Source: Eledone cirrhosa (lineage: Eukaryota). From it: 64,000 nt of DNA. Location of the stretch: NCBI GenBank assembly GCA_964016885.1, contig OZ024744.1:58032001-58096000 (forward strand). The letters are read 5' to 3'. This document shows, piece by piece, positions 80 to 58,829 of this stretch. Positions within the stretch are counted from its first letter, which is position 1; the number at the start of each line of letters is the position of its first letter. Below the pieces are notes generated by a model. It worked only from the letters and a program-made list of their open reading frames with translations, was not told the origin of the DNA and searched no databases. The position numbers were made by a program, and so were the translations under genes.

Positions 80-1890
80 TTAGTGTTTTTTCCTGACATT
101 TTGCGAGACTTTGAATGTAGACAAAGCTTTATGGAGGCAGTTTGAGAATAATTCACTTTTTTTGTTAATTGAGTTTTCATAATTAGTAATTATTAATAGG
201 GTCTCCATAGTACAGAGGTTGCAGTTAGGTGATATTGACGAATTCGAGTAGATTCTACTATTACATAGCTTCGTCCAAAAAATCGAGTATTTTAAATTTT
301 TGTCTTTTAATGACCATATACGTTGTGATAAAGAAGTCGAAGACTTCCTATTAGGATTCGAAAAAGAGCGTTTGTGATTCCCAAATCTCGATTTAAATGT
401 CGAAGAAGTTGCCCCTATGTAATTGTATGTGATGTTATTTGCTTTTACGGTGCATTTATACACCAAATTTCTATCTAGACAATTATTTTGCAGAGGGCAA
501 TCTGGTTTATTTCTACAATTACATTTCGATTTATTATTATTATAATTTATATTAACACTATTATTACTTCAAAATGTTCTATTGATAGTGCTTATATTGC
601 TGTTAATGTTATTCATAGTATCAATATTGTTAGTGTTATTATATTCATTATTGTTATAAGTATGCGGATTCTGGTTTAGAATTCTACTATTTAATTTAGC
701 GATGTTTTTGGTCATATTCATAGTTGTAGAATAAGAAAGCTTAATTGTGTGTCTATTAAATATGGAACGGTATTTATGTTGAATAGGGAAGGAATTATCT
801 AAAGCTTTAAAGAATAGATTAGCGAGTGGTGTTTTTATTGCTACAGAAGCAGGGGGGGGGGGGGTAGGGACCATATAACTGATTTAGTTCTGGTTTTTTC
901 CCCCAATTTATTCACAGTACAGGTGTTTGAATTATAATTTTTAGAATTTCGTTTATACATGTCAGTCATATTATTATTTTTATCAGGATTAAGATTCAAA
1001 TTATTATTGTCAATATATTCTATATTATATTTATAACCTGCCTTTCTTAGCGCATCATTGTAATATCCTGCTTTTTCATCAAATATGGATTTATTAGCAG
1101 ATATTCTAGTTATGCGTTTCTGTACACTATTAACAATTGCATTTTTCACAGATTTAGGGTGATTAGAGTAATAACTAACGTAATTTAAGTTTTCATTGGG
1201 CTTATGGAAAGGGAAATAAAAACCAGAGTTTAAGTTAAGGGTAACATCAAGGAAATTAACTATTTTGGTACCACTTTCAACCTCTAATTTAAGGTCGTAA
1301 TTTTTAAAGAATTCAATTATAGTTTTCTTAACCCTATTTAGTTCTGTATTGCTGTGTTTGACAACCGTAAATAAAATATCGTCCCTATATAAACCACCGG
1401 TAATCTCCGGCAGTTTTCTATTTACCATATTTAAGATGAAAATCCCCAGAAGATCCGTGACTTGCGCTGAGACCGATGATCCCATGGTAATGTCAAAGTT
1501 TCTATTTCTATCAGAGCGGGTCCAATATTCATTGTTGAAATTAATTAGAGTTCTTCTAGCAGTTAATATGATATCGATTTCATCCGTAGTTAGATCTGTA
1601 TGTTTGTAAGCGTGGGATAAGGCCTTATTTAATAGGTTAGGTGTAATGGAAGAGTAATAGATTGCTATGTCCATTTGGATGAATTTGTGGTTTTTCTTAT
1701 CTATATTTTTAAACCAATCAATCACTTCATTGGTGTCTTTCCACAAGCTCAATTTAGACCTCAATTTCAGAATAGGTAGAATTCTATCAATAATATTCTT
1801 ACTGATTACTCCAATATCCGATTTAGATGGAGCAATCAGTCTAACTAGCAGGTCTTCCTCAATAAATAATTGTCTAAAGACTTGGTATTA
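80..1890 (-). mobile_element. Penelope-like retroelement remnant (RT + C-terminal GIY-YIG endonuclease), frameshifted, 5'-truncated
   Basis: ORF 841-1764 has RT motifs (MDIAIYYSSI, FDITMGS, GLYRDD, VNFLDVTLNL, YSNHP). ORF 80-466 is GIY-YIG (VYKC..YIGATSSTFKSRFGNHKRSF..CNLCTME..CLH). A frameshift lies at the poly-G run ~852-865. Upstream in-frame RLIAPSKSDIG. Assignment to the Hydra clade is inference only. Confidence 0.9.
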
Positions 1891-36440: not shown

Positions 36441-38907
36441 CAGTGAGTCCTCGATATACAGTATATATGTGTTCCTGAAAACCTTTACCATCTATCGAAT
36501 TACCATATAAAGAACCCATTATAACATGAAATAGATAGGGATGCGTTCGAGCACATCGAAAAAGTCATCCCTACAGAAAAGAAATGTTTTTTTTTTTATT
36601 TACTGTACCTTACACATGCCGCGTAGTCCATCAGATGATGTGCCTCTTCATTTGTCCCTTCCAAGGCTAAGGGACAGTATGGGTTTCAGCCCTTACTCAT
36701 CTTGGGCTGAGTTAGCAGAGGAGGATGAGGGTGATGTGAGAGGCTCAAAACCAACAAACTCGTTGACTGCAGTGGATGTTGAAGGGCCAGCTGTAGCTCG
36801 GTTGGCAGGTGTGACTGGCTTGAAGAAAGAATAGATGGAGGACTGTTTGGCAGTGATTCTTTTGGCTTCATACATTTCTTGGTAAATCTTGATGCTTTTC
36901 TCGACGTTTGAACCACTTTGCAGGTCATGCTCCTTCAGGGTTTCTAAGATTGTTTCGATACTCCCGAGACATTCTCTTAGAGTTTTTATGTCCAAGCCAC
37001 GCACAGGTTCTTCTTCTTTTTCTGTCTCCTGTATCGCCTTGTCTAGTTCTATGAGTTCATCATTGGAGAGTGGTTCAGCGTGGCTTTCCAAAAGGTCTTG
37101 CACATCATCATCATTAACACCATCGAAGCCAGCTCTATGGCAGAGATTTACAATATCTTTTTTAATCACACCAATGTCCTCAGCAAAGCTTTGCAAGTCA
37201 TTCACACATGCTGACCATAATTTCTTCCAGACCAAGTTCATGGTAGACTGCTTCACTTCTTCCCAAGATGCTTTGATGTTGTCTAAGCTGTGCTTGATGT
37301 TGTACAATTTCCACCATTCCCTGATCGTGGACTTATCAGGCCCATCTGTGCCCTTTATCAGCTGCTGCGTGGTTCTCCGCTGGTAGTATGCCTTAAATGT
37401 TTTGATGACTGTTTGATCCATCAGCTGAATGAGAGCTGTGGTGTTTGGGGGGAGAAACAAAACCTCAATATTTTCTGACCAGTCTTCCATTGCCCGTGGG
37501 TGGCTGGGGGCGTTGTCCACTAATAGCAGAAAACGGTTGGCAATGTTGTTAACTAATGCATATTCCTTAAGGGTTGGTGACAGATATGAGGTGAAAAAAT
37601 CCTGGTGAATTGAAGTGATCAGCCATGCCTTCTTATTAGACTTCCATATCACTGGTAGGTATTGCTTAAGTAACCCCTTGAGTGCTCTTGGAGTTTCAGA
37701 ATGGTAGATAATGAGTGGCTTTAGCTTTAAATCTCCTTCTGCATTCCCTCCAAGTAACAGAGTAACGCGGTCCTTTGCGGCTTTGAACCCCTTCGCACTT
37801 TTCTCCTCCTTGTCAATATAAGTATTACTGGTCATCTTTTTCCAATAAAGTCCTGTTTCATCATAATTAATAACCTGTTTTTTGCTGTATGCCTTCTCTG
37901 CAATGCATTTCTCTAACTCTGCCTTGAATTTTTCAGCACTCTCTTTGTTGGAACTGGCAACCTCACCTGTAACTTTTATGTTGTGAAGACTCGAACGTCA
38001 TTTGAACTTATCAAACCAGCCTTTGCTTGCCTTGAATACAAAGTCCTCCACCCCCATTTCGGTCTTGAGCCTGTCAATAATGGACAATGCTTTCTCACTG
38101 ATTACATTTAAAGACAGAGGCATATTTTGACGATTTTGGTCGTCGATCCAAATTTTGAGCAACCTTTCGATCCTATCCATAATCGGCTCACGATGTTTGG
38201 TCAACAATTTATTCTGTAGACTCGTAGCATTCTCTCCAGCTTTTTTTGACAGCCTCACTATTTTTTAAAACAGTCCTGACTGTAGACTGGGCTAGGCCTA
38301 AGTTACGACTTATGGCGGACGTACCTTGCCCCTGTTCCTTCCTTTTCAAAATGTCCAGCTTTATCTCCAAAGTCAGGCTCTTCCTCATGCGTTTGGCCTT
38401 TCCATCTGCATCAGCAATATTCGCAGGATGTTTTGGGACCATGAGGTATGGGGTTATAAGATATGCAGTGATAATTATGCTCCAAAAACACGCCGTCGGG
38501 TTTTCTCTTACTTTGAATGATGTCATAACTCTTAACTGATCACTTCAGTTCGGCAAAAATTCTCTCACTGAGAGGACACACTAGTTTGCCAAACTGAAGT
38601 GATCAGTTAAGAGTTATGACGTCATCGACCAATATCTGAACTCGCTCGTGATTGGCCAGTTTCTCGGTAAGGTCAGTTAGTACGATAGCAGTAATAACAC
38701 AATTTTCCTAGAATTCGAATAGAAGTCAGTTTCCACAAATTCAAGGGGGAATTCATTGCTTACTACAGGTGGCACTACGGTACAATATAAACAAAAACCG
38801 TATCTGAGAATTTTTTTTACCGTAAATAGAATTGATGGTAGTAATTACCCAAAACCGTATCTGTGAATTTACCGGATAAAGAACTACCGTATATCGAGGA
38901 CCCACTA
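36441..38907 (-). mobile_element. Full-length Tigger/pogo DNA transposon
   Basis: 23-bp TIRs CAGTGAGTCCTCGATATACAGTA / TACCGTATATCGAGGACCCACTA, TA flanks, ~2.47 kb. Confidence 0.95.
36693..38442 (-). pseudogene. Tigger-family transposase (HTH_psq/CENP-B + DDE_1), disrupted
   Basis: KRMRKSLTLEIKLDIL, FKASKGWFDKFK, NYDETGLYWKKM, GFKAAKDRVTLLLGGNAEGD, LLVDNAPSHP, FLPPNTTALIQLMDQ; frameshift ~38250 and stop at 37998. Confidence 0.9.
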
Positions 38908-46455: not shown

Positions 46456-46583
46456 AGATATATATATATATATATATACATATATAAATGAAGTTTTTCC
46501 GTAGGAAAGGTACAGGAAAAGAGAGTGCTCTATGTAGGCTACAGAGCTTATTAGTTATATAATAAACAACATAAGATAATTAT

Positions 46584-46645
46584 TTCATTTACCAGTGGTT
46601 TCTTGACGGCAGATATTTATATCTGTCTTCAGTTGTCAGAATGAA
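46584..46645 (-). ncRNA. Hammerhead copy with G8A core mutation
   Basis: Reverse complement: TTCATT CTGACAA ctgaagacagatat..caa GAAA CCACTGG TA AATGAA. Confidence 0.6.
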
Positions 46646-46665
46646 TAAATACACCATGTCATTTA

Positions 46666-46727
46666 TTCATTCTGACGATTGAAGACAGATATAAATATCT
46701 GCCTTCAAGAAACCACTGGTAAATGAA
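46666..46727 (+). ncRNA. Type I hammerhead ribozyme (canonical core)
   Basis: TTCATT CTGACGA TTGAAGaCAGATAT aa ATATCTGcCTTCAA GAAA CCACTGG TA AATGAA. Confidence 0.85.
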
Positions 46728-46794
46728 ATAATTATCTTCTGTTGTTTATTACATAACTATATTCTCTCTCTCTCTATATATATATATACATAAC

Positions 46795-47962: not shown

Positions 47963-48056
<94 letters not shown>

Positions 48057-48176
48057 GTATATGTATATATGTGTATATATATGTATATATATGTATATAT
48101 ATGTATATATGTATATATATGTATATATATATATATATATGTATATATATTTGCCTGGAAACTTAGCTGAGAATAG

Positions 48177-48258
48177 ACTTCCCTGACGACGGAATGTTTC
48201 TCTATATCTTCTTCGGAAAATATATTTACTCCATTCCAGAAACTAATTAGTTGGAAGT
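48177..48258 (+). ncRNA. Type I hammerhead ribozyme, copy 1
   Basis: ACTTCC CTGACGA C GGAATG..CATTCC A GAAA CTAATTAG TT GGAAGT; predicted cut after 48252. Confidence 0.85.
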
Positions 48259-48698
48259 GATATTTTAGTAAGTAAGTTAATTTTATAATTTTCTTATTTT
48301 ACGTCTCTCATATTATTGTTCTGCAACCCCATGCATTGAACCACAATGTTACTAAGACAAAACCTATATATTTGCTAGCATTAATATGCATCTGTATGTA
48401 TATATATGTTACTAGATATTAATTCTTTATAATTATCTCCAAATTATTTGTCGAGCAATATTGGCCATGACTGCTGCTATGGTAGTAGGCAGGCCGCTGT
48501 CTTATTAGCAAACCACTTTCCACTGATTGACCTCGATGTCACGTGATTGATTCTTTTTGAATTTGCCACAAACGCAGAGGCAGTGATTTTCTCAATGGCT
48601 AGGAATTCAGTCCACGCTTTGCTATTTCCTATCCACTGAATTATTTTTTAATAAGTTTCCAGAGTCCTCGCTTTGCCTGAAAACTTAGCTGAGAATAG

Positions 48699-48780
48699 AC
48701 TTCCCTGACGACGGAATGTTTCTATATATCTTCTTCGGAAAATATATTTACTCCATTCCAGAAACTAATTAGTTGGAAGT
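48699..48780 (+). ncRNA. Type I hammerhead ribozyme, copy 2
   Basis: Same motif with CTGACGA at 48705-48711; predicted cut after 48774. Confidence 0.85.
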
Positions 48781-49087
48781 AATATTTTAGTAAGTAAGTT
48801 AATTTTATAATTTTCTTATTTTACGTCTCTCATATATATATATATATATGTTTGGAGAGGGTCATATTTGTGTAATATTGAAAGAATTAATAACAGAACA
48901 CACTCACTGTTTGGTTGGTTTTCGCTTCTCGGTTCTATGTCTTTTATATTGGTAATCTAACTTACTCGATCCTCAATGTTGCCATTGACTGACCGGCGGT
49001 CAAAAATAATACAGATACAATATAGACACAAACATATATATAGTTTATCATAAATCCTTCGTTATATTTATCATAAATATTTCGTTA

Positions 49088-49586: not shown

Positions 49587-49809
49587 ATATATATATATGT
49601 ATATATATATATGTATATAAATATATATGTATATATATATACATATATAGACATATATATATATATATGTATTAGAAAGTGAGGTTTTTTTTACAAAATG
49701 AAAAATAACCGAGGTGTCCTACACGAGTGGAAGTATAAAGAAAAAGGGATGAAATCGAAAATGCAACTGAAGTCTTATTTTTTTTTTAAATATATATATT
49801 TATTTGGTT

Positions 49810-49847
49810 CCTTTACCGGTTTCGCAGTTCTTCTGCTTTTCAAAAGG
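49810..49847 (-). ncRNA. Minimal hammerhead ribozyme, U3-A8 core
   Basis: Reverse complement of 49920-49957. Confidence 0.8.
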
Positions 49848-49919
49848 TGAGTTGAGATGGAGGGTCTGTGGTTTTTCTCACATCTGTGAGAAAAACCACA
49901 GACCCTCCATCTCAACTCA

Positions 49920-49957
49920 CCTTTTGAAAAGCAGAAGAACTGCGAAACCGGTAAAGG
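49920..49957 (+). ncRNA. Minimal hammerhead ribozyme, U3-A8 core
   Basis: CCTT TTGAAAA GCAG aagaa CTGC GAAA CCGG TA AAGG. Confidence 0.82.
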
Positions 49958-50033
49958 AACCAAATAAATATATATATTTTTTTTAAAAATAAGACTTCAG
50001 TTGCATTTTCGATTTCATCCCTTTTTCTTTATA

Positions 50034-53535: not shown

Positions 53536-56161
53536 ATGCTTCAAGCAAACTTCAATACTCTCTTATCCTTACACCTGAGCCAGGAATTGTTTGCATCCGT
53601 AAGGGAACTGTTTAGACTGTCGGAGAAATGGGCAACGCTGGCTGCCAAATCATTTTCCTGAAACGCTGCCTAAAAAACGATGTCATCCTCAACACCATCA
53701 AGAACATCCGCTTACCAGTAAGCCTACGTACACCAGCCTTCCAAAACACCACTAACCGCATACATCGCACATGTATTAAACAGATCCTGAGACATCTCAA
53801 CCGCCAATTACACGTCCATAAGCGGACACTCTCAGAGCGGACACATCGACTGTCAATAGCACCCGGCAACTTGCTCCTGAAAATCACTAAAGCAATCGAC
53901 CAGTGCTACCACTCCAGAGTCCAATACGAGAAAAAACGGCTCAAGCGAAAATATGAGTGGATCTTGTCGAAACGCCACAACGAGAACATCGACACTAACG
54001 AACAGACGGACCAGAACCACGTGGAAAACAACAACTTAACAACCGCCACCGCCGCAACCACCAACACCGAGCCATACCTCAACGATGCGACGCACCTGGT
54101 CACCGACCTAACCGGCACTCTCACGAGCGACGAGCTGAAACTCCTACACCTCGGACCTAAGTTCATCGTCTCACAACGTCTCGACGACAGACTCAAACTC
54201 AACATCGAGGCCGACTTTTGTCGAGCCGCTTACCAACTTAAATGGGTGACCGCCATCAACAGCGCCACAGAAAATAACAGCGCCGACGCAACCCACCCCA
54301 AGTTCCCCACTTACCACCCCGACAACCCACTCCACCCCCCACCCACCAACCACGAACTCGACACTAAACTCATCAGGCTAAAACACTCCATCTCGGATAT
54401 ACTTCACAAACACACACACACACACGCACAGCACATAACCTCACCAAATCTCAACTCACCACTCTCTCCAACCTAAAATCGAAGAACCTCATCTATCTCC
54501 CCTCCGACAAGGGAAAAGAATTCTGTATCATCAGCAGAGAGGCCTACAACACCCTGGCCCTCCAACACCTTGACGATGACAACCTCTACTCCAAGGTCAC
54601 GGTAATCACTCCCGCGCAGATAGAAGAACACATCAACTCCGCCTGGACCAACATCTGCGACCGGCGGAAGCTCCCGAAGAAGCTGAGATACAACCTCCTC
54701 ACGAGGAACAGCAGACTACCCGCCTTCTACCACCTCGTGAAAACACACAAACAGGGACCCGACCTGAAGATCAGGCCCATCGTATCGAGCGTGGAGGGAC
54801 CACTCTACAAAATTTCATGGCTCCTAGCCAAAATACTCAAACCCATCTTAGACACCTTGCCGGGACACGTTAACAGCTCCGAGGAGGTGTTGAAGCGCCT
54901 GCATCAAATGGATCCCGACACCAGAAGGAATAACAGATATGCCTTCAGCCTTGATGTAGTCGCTCTCTACACCTCGGTCCCGGCACTCCCGGCCGTCAAT
55001 ATACTAATGGAATGCGTCCAATCCACCGACCTACACTGCTTCGGGCTCACCACCACTGACATCCACCAACTCCTATCCATCGTCGTCGACAACACCTACT
55101 TCGGATTCCTTGACCAAATATACCAACAAACCTCGGGATTGCCCATGGGATCAAGCCTATCAGGTGTGCTAGCGATCTCTTACATGGACAACCTCGAACG
55201 CAAGGCACTCAACGCCTGCCACCCCAACGCCGTAGCCTTTTTCTCAAGGTACGTGGACGATATCCTCATCCTCATATCTTCCCAAGACACGGCGAACAGA
55301 ATCTATGAGACATTCAACAACACGGACGAGAACATTGACTTCAGTGTTGAACACCCCAACGAAGACGGGTCACTTGCCCTCCTTGACTTCCGAATCAACA
55401 TCACGGAACAGGGAAGGATCCACTGCAACTTCTACCGAAAGGCAGCCTGCAGGGACCTATTCGTTCACTACAAGTCCGCCCTCCCTAACAGTGCCAAAAG
55501 AGGATACATCACGAACGAGATCGCGCGAATCAAAAACAGATGCAGCGATCCCGCGAGTGGTGTCACTCATACCAAGCGATTCCTCGAGGTGCTGGAGACG
55601 AACGGGTACCCTACCTCGATCACAGACAGAATAGGAGACACCAGACGCAAGAGACAGAGAAGCACCCAAGGCAAGTGCTTCCTTAAAATGCCACACCTGG
55701 GCGAGAAAACCACCAACGCTATCCGCAAGGCTATACGGAGGGAGAGCCTCGACATCCACCTGGCCCACTCGGGCCCCTCCCTGCGAAGATGCCTCTCCAG
55801 GAAACCCGAAAAATCTACTGACGCATGCTCCCTCAGAGACTGCCCGATACGCCATGCGAACTGTTGCCTACGCACATACGTCGTGTATAAGATAGAATGT
55901 GAAAGGTGCAACCAATACTACATAGGTAGCACAATTCGACCTTTGCACATCCGGATCAAGGAACACACTAAAACCAGGGCCTCGTCTTTCCGGAAACACA
56001 TAGACAAATGCGGAAACAAAGACGGAAGGCCCATTGTGACAATTCTAGCGACTGAAAGAAACGTCGACACGTTACGTATCAAGGAAGCGCTTTTTATCAA
56101 ACGACTGCACCCGCAAATAAACAACCGAACAGAGAGAAACGAAATGAGATGGCTAGTTTAA
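53536..56161 (+). pseudogene. PLE polyprotein (N-terminal domain, RT, Cys linker, GIY-YIG) with two frameshifts
   Basis: [17 protein letters not shown] / CQIIFLKRC.. / NLIYLPSDKG..RPIVS..SLDVVALYTSV..GLPMGSSLS..RYVDD..LLDF..NGYP..CSLRDCP..VVYKIECERCNQYYIGST..RIKEH..KEALFI..INNR; frameshifts at ~53640 and in the (CA)n run ~54410-54425. Confidence 0.92.
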
Positions 56162-58199: not shown

Positions 58200-58382
58200 A
58201 TAGGATATACGTTCCTTCACGCACAAGGCGCCAAGGTACGCATGTATTGTCCAACCAAATGCCAGTGTGGTTCAATGGCGGGTTAATAAATTAACGAGCC
58301 AGAACAAATATAAACAAGGTTTAGCAAATAATGAAAAAGTTTCAAAATAAATTTTAAAAAATTGACTTTACCTACTATAGTT

Positions 58383-58466
58383 ACCTTTACCGATCGGTTT
58401 CGAATCCCAAAAATAAAACGGAGACCATACGGCCTTCGTTGTAAAGAAAGATTCTCGTCAGAAGGT
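58383..58466 (-). ncRNA. Type I hammerhead ribozyme (canonical core)
   Basis: Reverse complement: ACCTT CTGACGA GAATC..GATTC GAAA CCGATCGG TA AAGGT; lies between ~22-bp inverted repeats (~58309-58330 / 58678-58699). Confidence 0.9.
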
Positions 58467-58692
58467 TCTTTTCATTCAAAGAATATAAAATTCCTGAATT
58501 TAAATCACAAACTAGCGCTATCAAAACTGTTCCTGGGATGAGAGTGGATGAAGAAACATGTTTATCAAGGGCCGTAGCAAAGATAGAGGCAAAAGGAGGT
58601 AGGTCAAACTAGCCACAGCTATTGCTAGCAGCAGTCAGAACGACCAATTTTGTTCTCAACGTTAGTGGAGGTAGTAGTATTTGCTAAACCTT

Positions 58693-58829
<137 letters not shown>

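What the first reader, a model, noticed from the sequence alone, without database searches (positions are those of the whole stretch)
48151..48835. Tandem double-hammerhead, non-coding element (candidate cephalopod retrozyme) predicted to release a 522-nt RNA
Seen: two ~163-bp direct repeats 522 bp apart. Each has a canonical type I HHR (CUGACGA/GAAA, helix I ACUUCC/GGAAGU) with a palindromic helix III (CUAAUUAG). There is no ORF, and (TA)n lies on both flanks. Established: minimal PLE-type HHRs with palindromic helix III tend to cleave as dimers, and metazoan non-LTR retrozymes are tandem HHR repeats processed to monomeric and circular RNAs. Inference: a read-through transcript would be cut after 48252 and 48774, giving a 522-nt monomer that could circularise and be copied by a PLE RT in trans. 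Alternative: a severely truncated PLE, since 48313-48345 reads IIVLQPHALN, resembling a GIY-YIG C-terminus.
Basis: partly seen in the sequence, partly recalled or inferred. Interest (0 to 1): 0.9.

Follow-up and report, generated by a model that had tools for sequence, protein, structure and literature searches.

The report
Penelope-mobilised hammerhead retrozyme family
This is one copy of a protein-free 522-base repeat that carries a conserved hammerhead ribozyme fold and has thousands of copies in TA microsatellites; the shape of the insertions shows it was likely spread by Penelope-type retrotransposon enzymes, and two-armed insertions pair one short-ended arm with one long-ended arm, a testable clue to how these enzymes insert.

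Summary
There are two 164-nt repeats 522 nt apart, each with a type I hammerhead (predicted cuts after 48252 and 48774). They are not LTRs: the locus is 1.31 turns of an ORF-free 522-nt unit. The genome has 2,228 exact copies of the ribozyme's 3' half, plus 9,320 in sister subfamilies. Helices I and II covary across subfamilies, although the GUU triplet and a C·A at the base of helix II are non-canonical.

Copies are head-to-tail multimers with variable 5' ends and two fixed 3' ends, +61 and +179 after the cut, abutting (TA)n. All 73 classifiable two-armed inverted insertions pair one end of each type (15 more could not be classed). This is the Penelope-like-element (PLE) 'tail' signature, so a PLE enzyme very likely copies the RNA. 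5' ends are enriched just after the cut site (12 of 54 arms that reach it), suggesting cleavage in vivo. Cleavage, circles and expression were not shown, and the autonomous partner was not found. The GIY-YIG-remnant idea is rejected.

Verdict: a new member of a known kind (non-LTR retrozyme, non-autonomous PLE) with useful mechanistic footprints.

The parts
48150..48835 (+). Whole insertion: single arm, 1.31 units; 5'-truncated at unit position +420, 3' end at the +61 site
48253..48774 (+). 522-nt unit between the two predicted cut sites (predicted monomer; 34.5% GC, no ORF)
   Evidence: circular fold -116 kcal/mol, z -3.9 against 60 shuffles
48177..48258 (+). Type I hammerhead 1; predicted cut after 48252 (GUU); long helix II with a distal UUCG hairpin
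48699..48780 (+). Type I hammerhead 2; predicted cut after 48774
48241..48252 (+). 12-nt palindrome spanning helix III (also 48763-48774); predicted dimer duplex -13 kcal/mol
48300..48313 (+). Short-end (A, +61) site, inferred RT start; used as the real 3' end at 48835
   Evidence: 48 of 97 arms end here
48418..48431 (+). Long-end (B, +179) site, inferred second RT start; 48314-48431 is the 118-nt PLE-type tail
   Evidence: 44 of 97 arms end here
48312..48345 (+).
48368..48419 (+). Long tail hairpin between sites A and B, candidate RT-binding element (inferred)
   Evidence: folds in all 22 reference units; 91% of cells paired in 27 sister-family sequences, weak covariation (3 of 24 pairs)
47966..48149 (.). 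(TA)n target, 5' flank
48836..48849 (.). (TA)n target, 3' flank

Best explanation
This is a 5'-truncated copy of an ORF-free, tandem hammerhead repeat family (a non-LTR retrozyme) that was very likely inserted into a TA microsatellite by the RT and GIY-YIG nuclease of a Penelope-like element acting in trans. Shown: thousands of dispersed multimeric copies, variable 5' ends, two fixed 3' ends at (TA)n, head-to-head two-armed insertions with one arm of each end type, and a ribozyme fold under selection. Inferred: multimeric transcripts are cut by the hammerhead, probably as a dimer through the palindrome or with protein help, into 522-nt monomers, many of which are ligated into circles. A PLE complex then cuts (TA)n and primes cDNA from both DNA ends, one at +61 and one at +179. 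Each cDNA can run past the ribozyme junction for more than one unit (circle or uncut multimer), or it stops at the 5' end of a cleaved linear RNA. The two cDNAs are joined through short microhomology.
For: Copy number: 2,228 exact hits to a 26-nt ribozyme half (control 0) and 9,320 in sister subfamilies. Arrays of up to 11 units. 92 of 97 arms from 59 unselected loci end at +61 or +179, and 86 of 97 abut TA-rich DNA. Pair rule: 43 of 43 classifiable pairs and 30 of 30 further independent pairs. The same two-end pairing (+36/+101) occurs in 7 of 7 classifiable independent pairs of an unrelated HHR family with a PLE-type GIY-YIG ORF upstream in one locus, L332. Two RT start sites delimiting a 'tail' were shown in vitro for a lizard PLE (PMC11167929). 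No indel at the cut junction in 191 crossings (nearest: one at unit position 521). Units in one arm share 285 of 313 common variants, against about 11% between loci, with no polarised recurrent unit differences (28 vs 30). 13 of 55 arms that reach the last 20 nt after an upstream cut site stop there, against a baseline of 57/1209 per 20 nt, and 0 of 42 stop in the next 20 nt (12 of 54 after dropping one rearranged junction). One locus joins the element at +177 directly to a PLE RT-GIY-YIG ORF.
Against: No autonomous PLE sharing the ribozyme or tail sequence was found. GUU and the C·A at the base of helix II predict weak cleavage (my knowledge of hammerhead rules). In the predicted circle helix I forms with probability 0.01, and in the window's RNA the dimer helix forms with only 0.14. 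The 5'-end excess is weaker against the stop rate in the ribozyme region itself (27/223 per 20 nt; p 0.013 pooled, 0.12 in the sister set), only 1 of the 13 junctions falls exactly at +1 (most +2 to +17), and other unit positions also show peaks. The lizard PLE study found HHR cleavage unnecessary for insertion and no RNA reads ending at the cut. Only 1 of 9 Xenopus retrozyme dimers cleaved in vitro. Seamless junctions and shared haplotypes fit an uncut homogeneous multimer as well as a circle. One homotypic pair exists in a related family (L317).
Confidence: 0.72

Rival explanations
1. The same non-autonomous PLE-mobilised element, but the template is a linear, mostly uncut multimeric read-through transcript; circles play no part, and long arrays are kept up by local tandem expansion of master loci.
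For: 42 of 160 arms cross two or more cut sites with no junction scars. Unprocessed RNA was the main substrate for the lizard PLE. Arrays L093 and L094 have unit-length variants (523/525 and 516/522) that suggest local expansion. The ribozyme core is non-canonical.
Against: Subfamily variants are shared by all units of most loci (285/313), 43 of 255 locus-private variants are shared within arms, and no unit-position-specific differences recur; together these imply a frequent one-unit bottleneck. Strong covariation of the ribozyme over about 30% divergence. The recurrence test has little power if sources are many.
Confidence: 0.2
2. The unit is the pLTR or 3' end of an autonomous PLE not yet found, and the copies are its truncated ends.
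For: The unit is built like a pLTR: tail, promoter-like middle (E-box-like CACGTG at 48540-48545, untested), ribozyme. Li et al. report pLTR homology for 24 of 57 Xenopus families. Only about 117 loci of more than 11,000 hits were read.
Against: Upstream of every ribozyme lies another unit, TA or an inverted arm. No significant protein match of the unit to 22 PLE ORF pieces or 30 GIY-YIG C-termini (best E 0.012-0.015 with stops, in tiny databases). Diverged subfamilies are tandem and ORF-free too.
Confidence: 0.05
3. A DNA-level satellite or foldback element, spread by recombination or DNA transposition, with a vestigial ribozyme.
For: Tandem arrays and inverted arms; some junctions are foldbacks at the same unit position (L041, L093, L120, L128).
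Against: The copies are dispersed with fixed 3' and variable 5' ends; in many pairs neither arm is contained in the other (e.g. L115, L142); some pairs have arms from different haplotypes (6 of 25) or different families (L094, L091, L056); RNA-structure covariation.
Confidence: 0.03

Closest known systems
Metazoan non-LTR retrozymes (Cervera & de la Peña 2020, PMC7229834: passages and Discussion read; Li, Clavereau & Pollet 2026, bioRxiv 10.64898/2026.07.22.740005: parts 1-3 of 5 read, Introduction to Discussion)
   Same: ORF-free, low-GC tandem units, each with a type I HHR; thousands of copies; proposed PLE mobilisation; known in a mollusc (mussel).
   Different: The unit (522-571 nt) is longer than the 150-450 nt of Cervera but within the 51-972 nt of Li. 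GUU triplet, C·A at the base of helix II and a very long helix II. In the parts read, neither paper describes fixed RT start sites, tails or two-armed insertions in retrozymes. Cleavage and circRNA were shown there and not here.
EN+ Penelope-like elements and their tail (Frangieh 2024, PMC11167929: parts 1-2 of 4 read; Craig 2021, PMC8557442, Arkhipova 2013, PMC3846280, and Cervera 2014, PMC4209133: passages read)
   Same: 5' truncation, partial tandems, an inverted 5' arm, a tail on one end only, TA bias, an HHR with palindromic helix III and an extra base 5' of helix II, and two RT start sites downstream of the HHR.
   Different: No RT or endonuclease ORF. The tail is 118 nt rather than 30-40 nt. 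Frangieh saw no strand difference in start site in vitro, whereas two-armed genomic insertions here pair one start of each type in 73 of 73 classifiable cases.
Non-autonomous Chlamys elements such as MRC1 (PMC8557442, passage)
   Same: Non-autonomous PLE derivatives that form multicopy head-to-tail insertions.
   Different: Those generally share 3' sequence with an autonomous family, and most Chlamys lack canonical HHRs; here the HHR is central and no parent was found.

Membership tests
non-LTR retrozyme | Tandem units, each with a type I HHR (at least two consecutive complete HHRs, MFE below -5 kcal/mol; Li et al. criterion) | tested here: met
non-LTR retrozyme | No protein-coding capacity; GC below 45-50% | tested here: met
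   longest sense ATG ORF 18 aa; GC 34.5%
non-LTR retrozyme | No true LTRs (the repeats are unit overlaps) | tested here: met
   5' ends spread over the whole unit; PBS and PPT were not searched for
non-LTR retrozyme | Self-cleavage of the transcript | not testable with these tools
   indirect only: covariation and the 5'-end excess after the cut site
non-LTR retrozyme | Expressed as linear and circular monomer RNA | not testable with these tools
   needs RNA data from the organism
non-autonomous PLE | PLE insertion signature: 5' truncation, partial tandems, inverted arm, one-sided tail, microsatellite target | tested here: met
non-autonomous PLE | Sequence shared with the pLTR of an autonomous PLE | tested here: inconclusive
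   none found among the PLE families sampled; the sample is small
autonomous EN+ PLE | RT plus GIY-YIG ORF upstream of the HHR | tested here: not met
canonical type I hammerhead | Conserved core with a Watson-Crick pair closing helix II next to A9/G12 and a GUC or GUA triplet | tested here: not met
   CUGANGA and GAAA core present, but C·A at the helix base and GUU, both fixed; no Rfam match

The most novel reading that the evidence does not exclude
These retrozymes record an undescribed rule of PLE insertion. An asymmetric, probably dimeric RT-nuclease complex primes both ends of one break in (TA)n, always one end at the short start site and the other at the long one. It can do so on two separate RNA molecules: about a quarter of informative pairs carry different haplotypes, and a few carry different families. 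The hammerhead palindrome may pair those two RNAs. Ribozyme-cut circles serve as rolling templates, and cut linear RNAs leave 5' ends at the cleavage site.
Probability: 0.35. Interest if true: 0.75.

Novelty: new member of a known kind. Interest (0 to 1): 0.5.

Why it matters
Retrozymes were proposed to use PLE machinery from co-occurrence and pLTR similarity. Here the insertions themselves carry the PLE signature, which is more direct genomic evidence, in a genome with at least five such families and tens of thousands of ribozyme copies. The near-strict pairing of the two start sites, the mixed-template pairs and the 5'-end excess at the cut site give sharp predictions for the existing in vitro PLE system. 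They bear on the open questions of how PLE tandem and inverted structures arise and what the hammerhead is for. A conserved GUU / C·A hammerhead is also a good test of how weak or dimer-dependent ribozymes are kept under selection.

Tried and rejected
Rfam scans found no hammerhead.

Expression: no RNA holder was listed; this says nothing either way. Laying contigs of runs X1, X2 and X4 (kind unknown, one study) showed the family in many variant forms, with TA-flanked loose ends at 48313 and 48431 in X4; contigs cannot show RNA ends.

Partner search, without success: GIY-YIG Pfam search with 150 matches and 30 loci, plus 14 fetched regions around long ORFs; pattern for the ribozyme with a GUC or GUA triplet (11 hits; no joined ORF at these loci); patterns for the shared tail motif (only tandem families); tblastn of 22 PLE ORF pieces against family loci (PLE fragments nearby but only L055 directly joined); two other HHR families of the window. 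The PLE fused at L055 has its own, unrelated ribozyme, so it is one template switch, not proof of partnership.

GIY-YIG remnant rejected. LTR-retrozyme reading rejected (variable 5' ends). Pure foldback origin of the inverted arm rejected as the general case (arms not nested). One search used a mis-set structure string and is replaced.

Literature: searches for Octopus + Penelope + hammerhead, cephalopod + hammerhead ribozyme, PLE + tail + inverted + twin priming and retrozyme + tail + inverted gave no cephalopod retrozyme paper and no statement of the pair rule. The library lacks most subscription papers, and the supplements of the bioRxiv preprint were not seen. Scan notes by place and by sequence were empty.

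Full report
Observation. The window has a 164-nt direct repeat at 48150-48313 and 48672-48835, with three differences, between (TA)n tracts. Each copy holds a type I hammerhead: helix I, CUGACGA, a 6-bp helix II extended by a distal UUCG hairpin, GAAA, a palindromic helix III and a UU cleavage site. Cuts are predicted after 48252 and 48774. Rfam does not recognise it and its folding energy alone is unremarkable. An alignment of 28 copies from young and diverged subfamilies settles it: 91% of cells pair, 10 of 19 pairs change on both sides, helix II occurs in at least four compensated versions, and helix I has lost one base on both strands in the sister subfamilies. Related sequences can beat the shuffle control without structure, but slid partners pair only 37-43%. 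Two non-canonical traits are fixed: GUU at the cut and unpaired C and A at the base of helix II.

Family. The genome (3.0 Gb) has 2,228 exact matches to the ribozyme's 3' half and 9,320 to the sister version, with reversed controls at 0. Units measure 522-571 nt and occur in arrays of up to 11. There is no ORF. I parsed the first 100 young-family hits on contig C1 (59 loci, 97 arms) and 21 loci from the best matches to the window. Of the 97 arms, 48 end at about +61 after the cut, 44 at about +179 and 5 elsewhere; 86 abut TA-rich DNA; 39 exceed one unit. 5' ends are spread over the whole unit. The window copy is a single arm running from +420 through two ribozymes to +61, so its repeats are the overlap of a 1.31-mer.

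Pair rule. Many insertions have two arms joined head to head. Of 51 pairs in the young family, 43 could be classed, and all 43 have one +61 and one +179 arm; 8 have one atypical end. In 60 sister-family regions, 39 pairs were listed: 32 heterotypic (30 after removing a duplicate locus and one already counted), 7 unclassed, none homotypic. Some loci may be segmental duplicates. An abundant 430-nt retrozyme (9,768 hits; ends +220/+276) and an unrelated family with a PLE ORF upstream at one locus (ends +36/+101; 7 of 7 classifiable independent pairs) behave alike. A 483-nt family gave 2 heterotypic pairs and 1 homotypic pair, so the rule is not absolute. The literature describes a PLE tail present at one end only and shows in vitro that it lies between two internal RT start sites, with no strand difference seen.

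Template. Divergence is 1.9% between units of an arm, 2.4% between arms and 5.2% between loci. Common variants are shared 285/313, 194/260 and about 11% of the time. Of 25 informative pairs, 17 have matching haplotypes, 6 clearly do not and 2 are intermediate (the two long arrays L093 and L094 and the hypervariable loop were left out). Three loci pair this element with an arm of another HHR family, so the two arms can come from separate RNAs. Differences between successive units show no polarity (139 vs 139) and no directional recurrence (28 vs 30). There is no indel at the cut junction in 191 crossings. This fits repeated copying of one monomer (a circle), but also a homogeneous uncut multimer.

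Cleavage footprint. Of 55 arms that reach the 20 nt just after an upstream cut site, 13 stop there, against 4.7% per 20 nt elsewhere in the unit, and 0 of 42 stop in the next 20 nt. For this I used 85 young arms and 83 of 102 sister arms, leaving out duplicates and short or odd arms; 75 passed the length filter. One junction is a rearrangement, leaving 12 of 54. Against the higher stop rate inside the ribozyme region the excess is modest (p 0.013). It suggests that about a fifth of templates are linear RNAs beginning at the cut; it is not proof.

Partner. None was identified. Several PLE families with RT and GIY-YIG domains, one with a 938-aa open frame, are present and carry their own ribozymes downstream of the ORF. 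One locus fuses the retrozyme at +177 to a truncated PLE ORF, best read as a template switch. IIVLQPHALN is on the wrong side of the ribozyme, has stops or frame changes in sister units, and overlaps a motif shared with two other tandem families. It is more likely an RNA signal beside the short start site. A long hairpin between the two start sites is kept in all 22 reference units, with weak covariation.

Known kinds. The element meets the genomic definition of a non-LTR retrozyme and has the insertion marks of a non-autonomous PLE. Cleavage and circular RNA, shown for coral, mussel and axolotl retrozymes, are untested here. Cautions: only 1 of 9 Xenopus dimers cleaved, and the lizard PLE ribozyme needed protein and was dispensable for insertion. 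My searches found no cephalopod retrozyme and no statement of the pair rule. One earlier scan note describes a similar TA-targeted PLE-type repeat in another genome; I did not test it.

Verdict. A real feature and a new member of a known kind, interest 0.5. The class is published and the idea of PLE mobilisation is in a 2026 preprint, but the pair rule, the mixed-template arms and the cut-site footprint are specific and testable.

Noticed in passing
window 46490-46760: Two-armed inverted insertion of another long-helix-II hammerhead family (1,027 exact hits; ends +36/+101). A PLE-type GIY-YIG ORF lies about 1.7 kb upstream in L332.
   Followed up: partly
window 49675-50030: Two-armed 3' end of the PLE family with a 938-aa RT-GIY-YIG ORF (L098, L099), one long and one short arm; its ribozyme-like core reads UUGAAAA rather than CUGANGA.
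   Followed up: partly
window 58200-58700 (-): Copy of a third retrozyme family: 483-nt unit, 1,229 exact hits, arrays of up to about 10 units, ends +75/+185.
   Followed up: partly
L197, L091, L094: Very abundant 430-nt retrozyme (9,768 exact hits) with ends +220/+276; forms mixed two-armed insertions and one same-strand chimera (L016) with the family studied.
   Followed up: partly
L099:6100-7000: Fourth tandem HHR family (457-467-nt unit) sharing the motif after the short start site.
   Followed up: partly
window 48266-48276: GTAAGT (5' splice-site consensus, recalled) twice, 16-25 nt after the cut, kept in all subfamilies; may echo the PLE 5' intron.
   Followed up: no
window 53616-56161 (+) and 80-1887 (-): Near-complete PLE (RT + GIY-YIG, two frames) and a second broken PLE; further single hammerheads at 2413 (+) and 46947 (-); RTE-like LINE pieces and a pogo/Tigger-like transposase at 36693-37997 (-) (names recalled from motifs).
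   Followed up: no
L054:1-594: ORF with repeated FD/MD-x5-MD motifs resembling cephalopod reflectin (recalled; Pfam gave no such family), next to a retrozyme insertion.
   Followed up: no
L100, L090 (PLE 3' UTR): An ORF-bearing PLE family also has U at the cleavage position and a mismatch at the base of helix II, so these non-canonical traits are not unique to the retrozyme.
   Followed up: no
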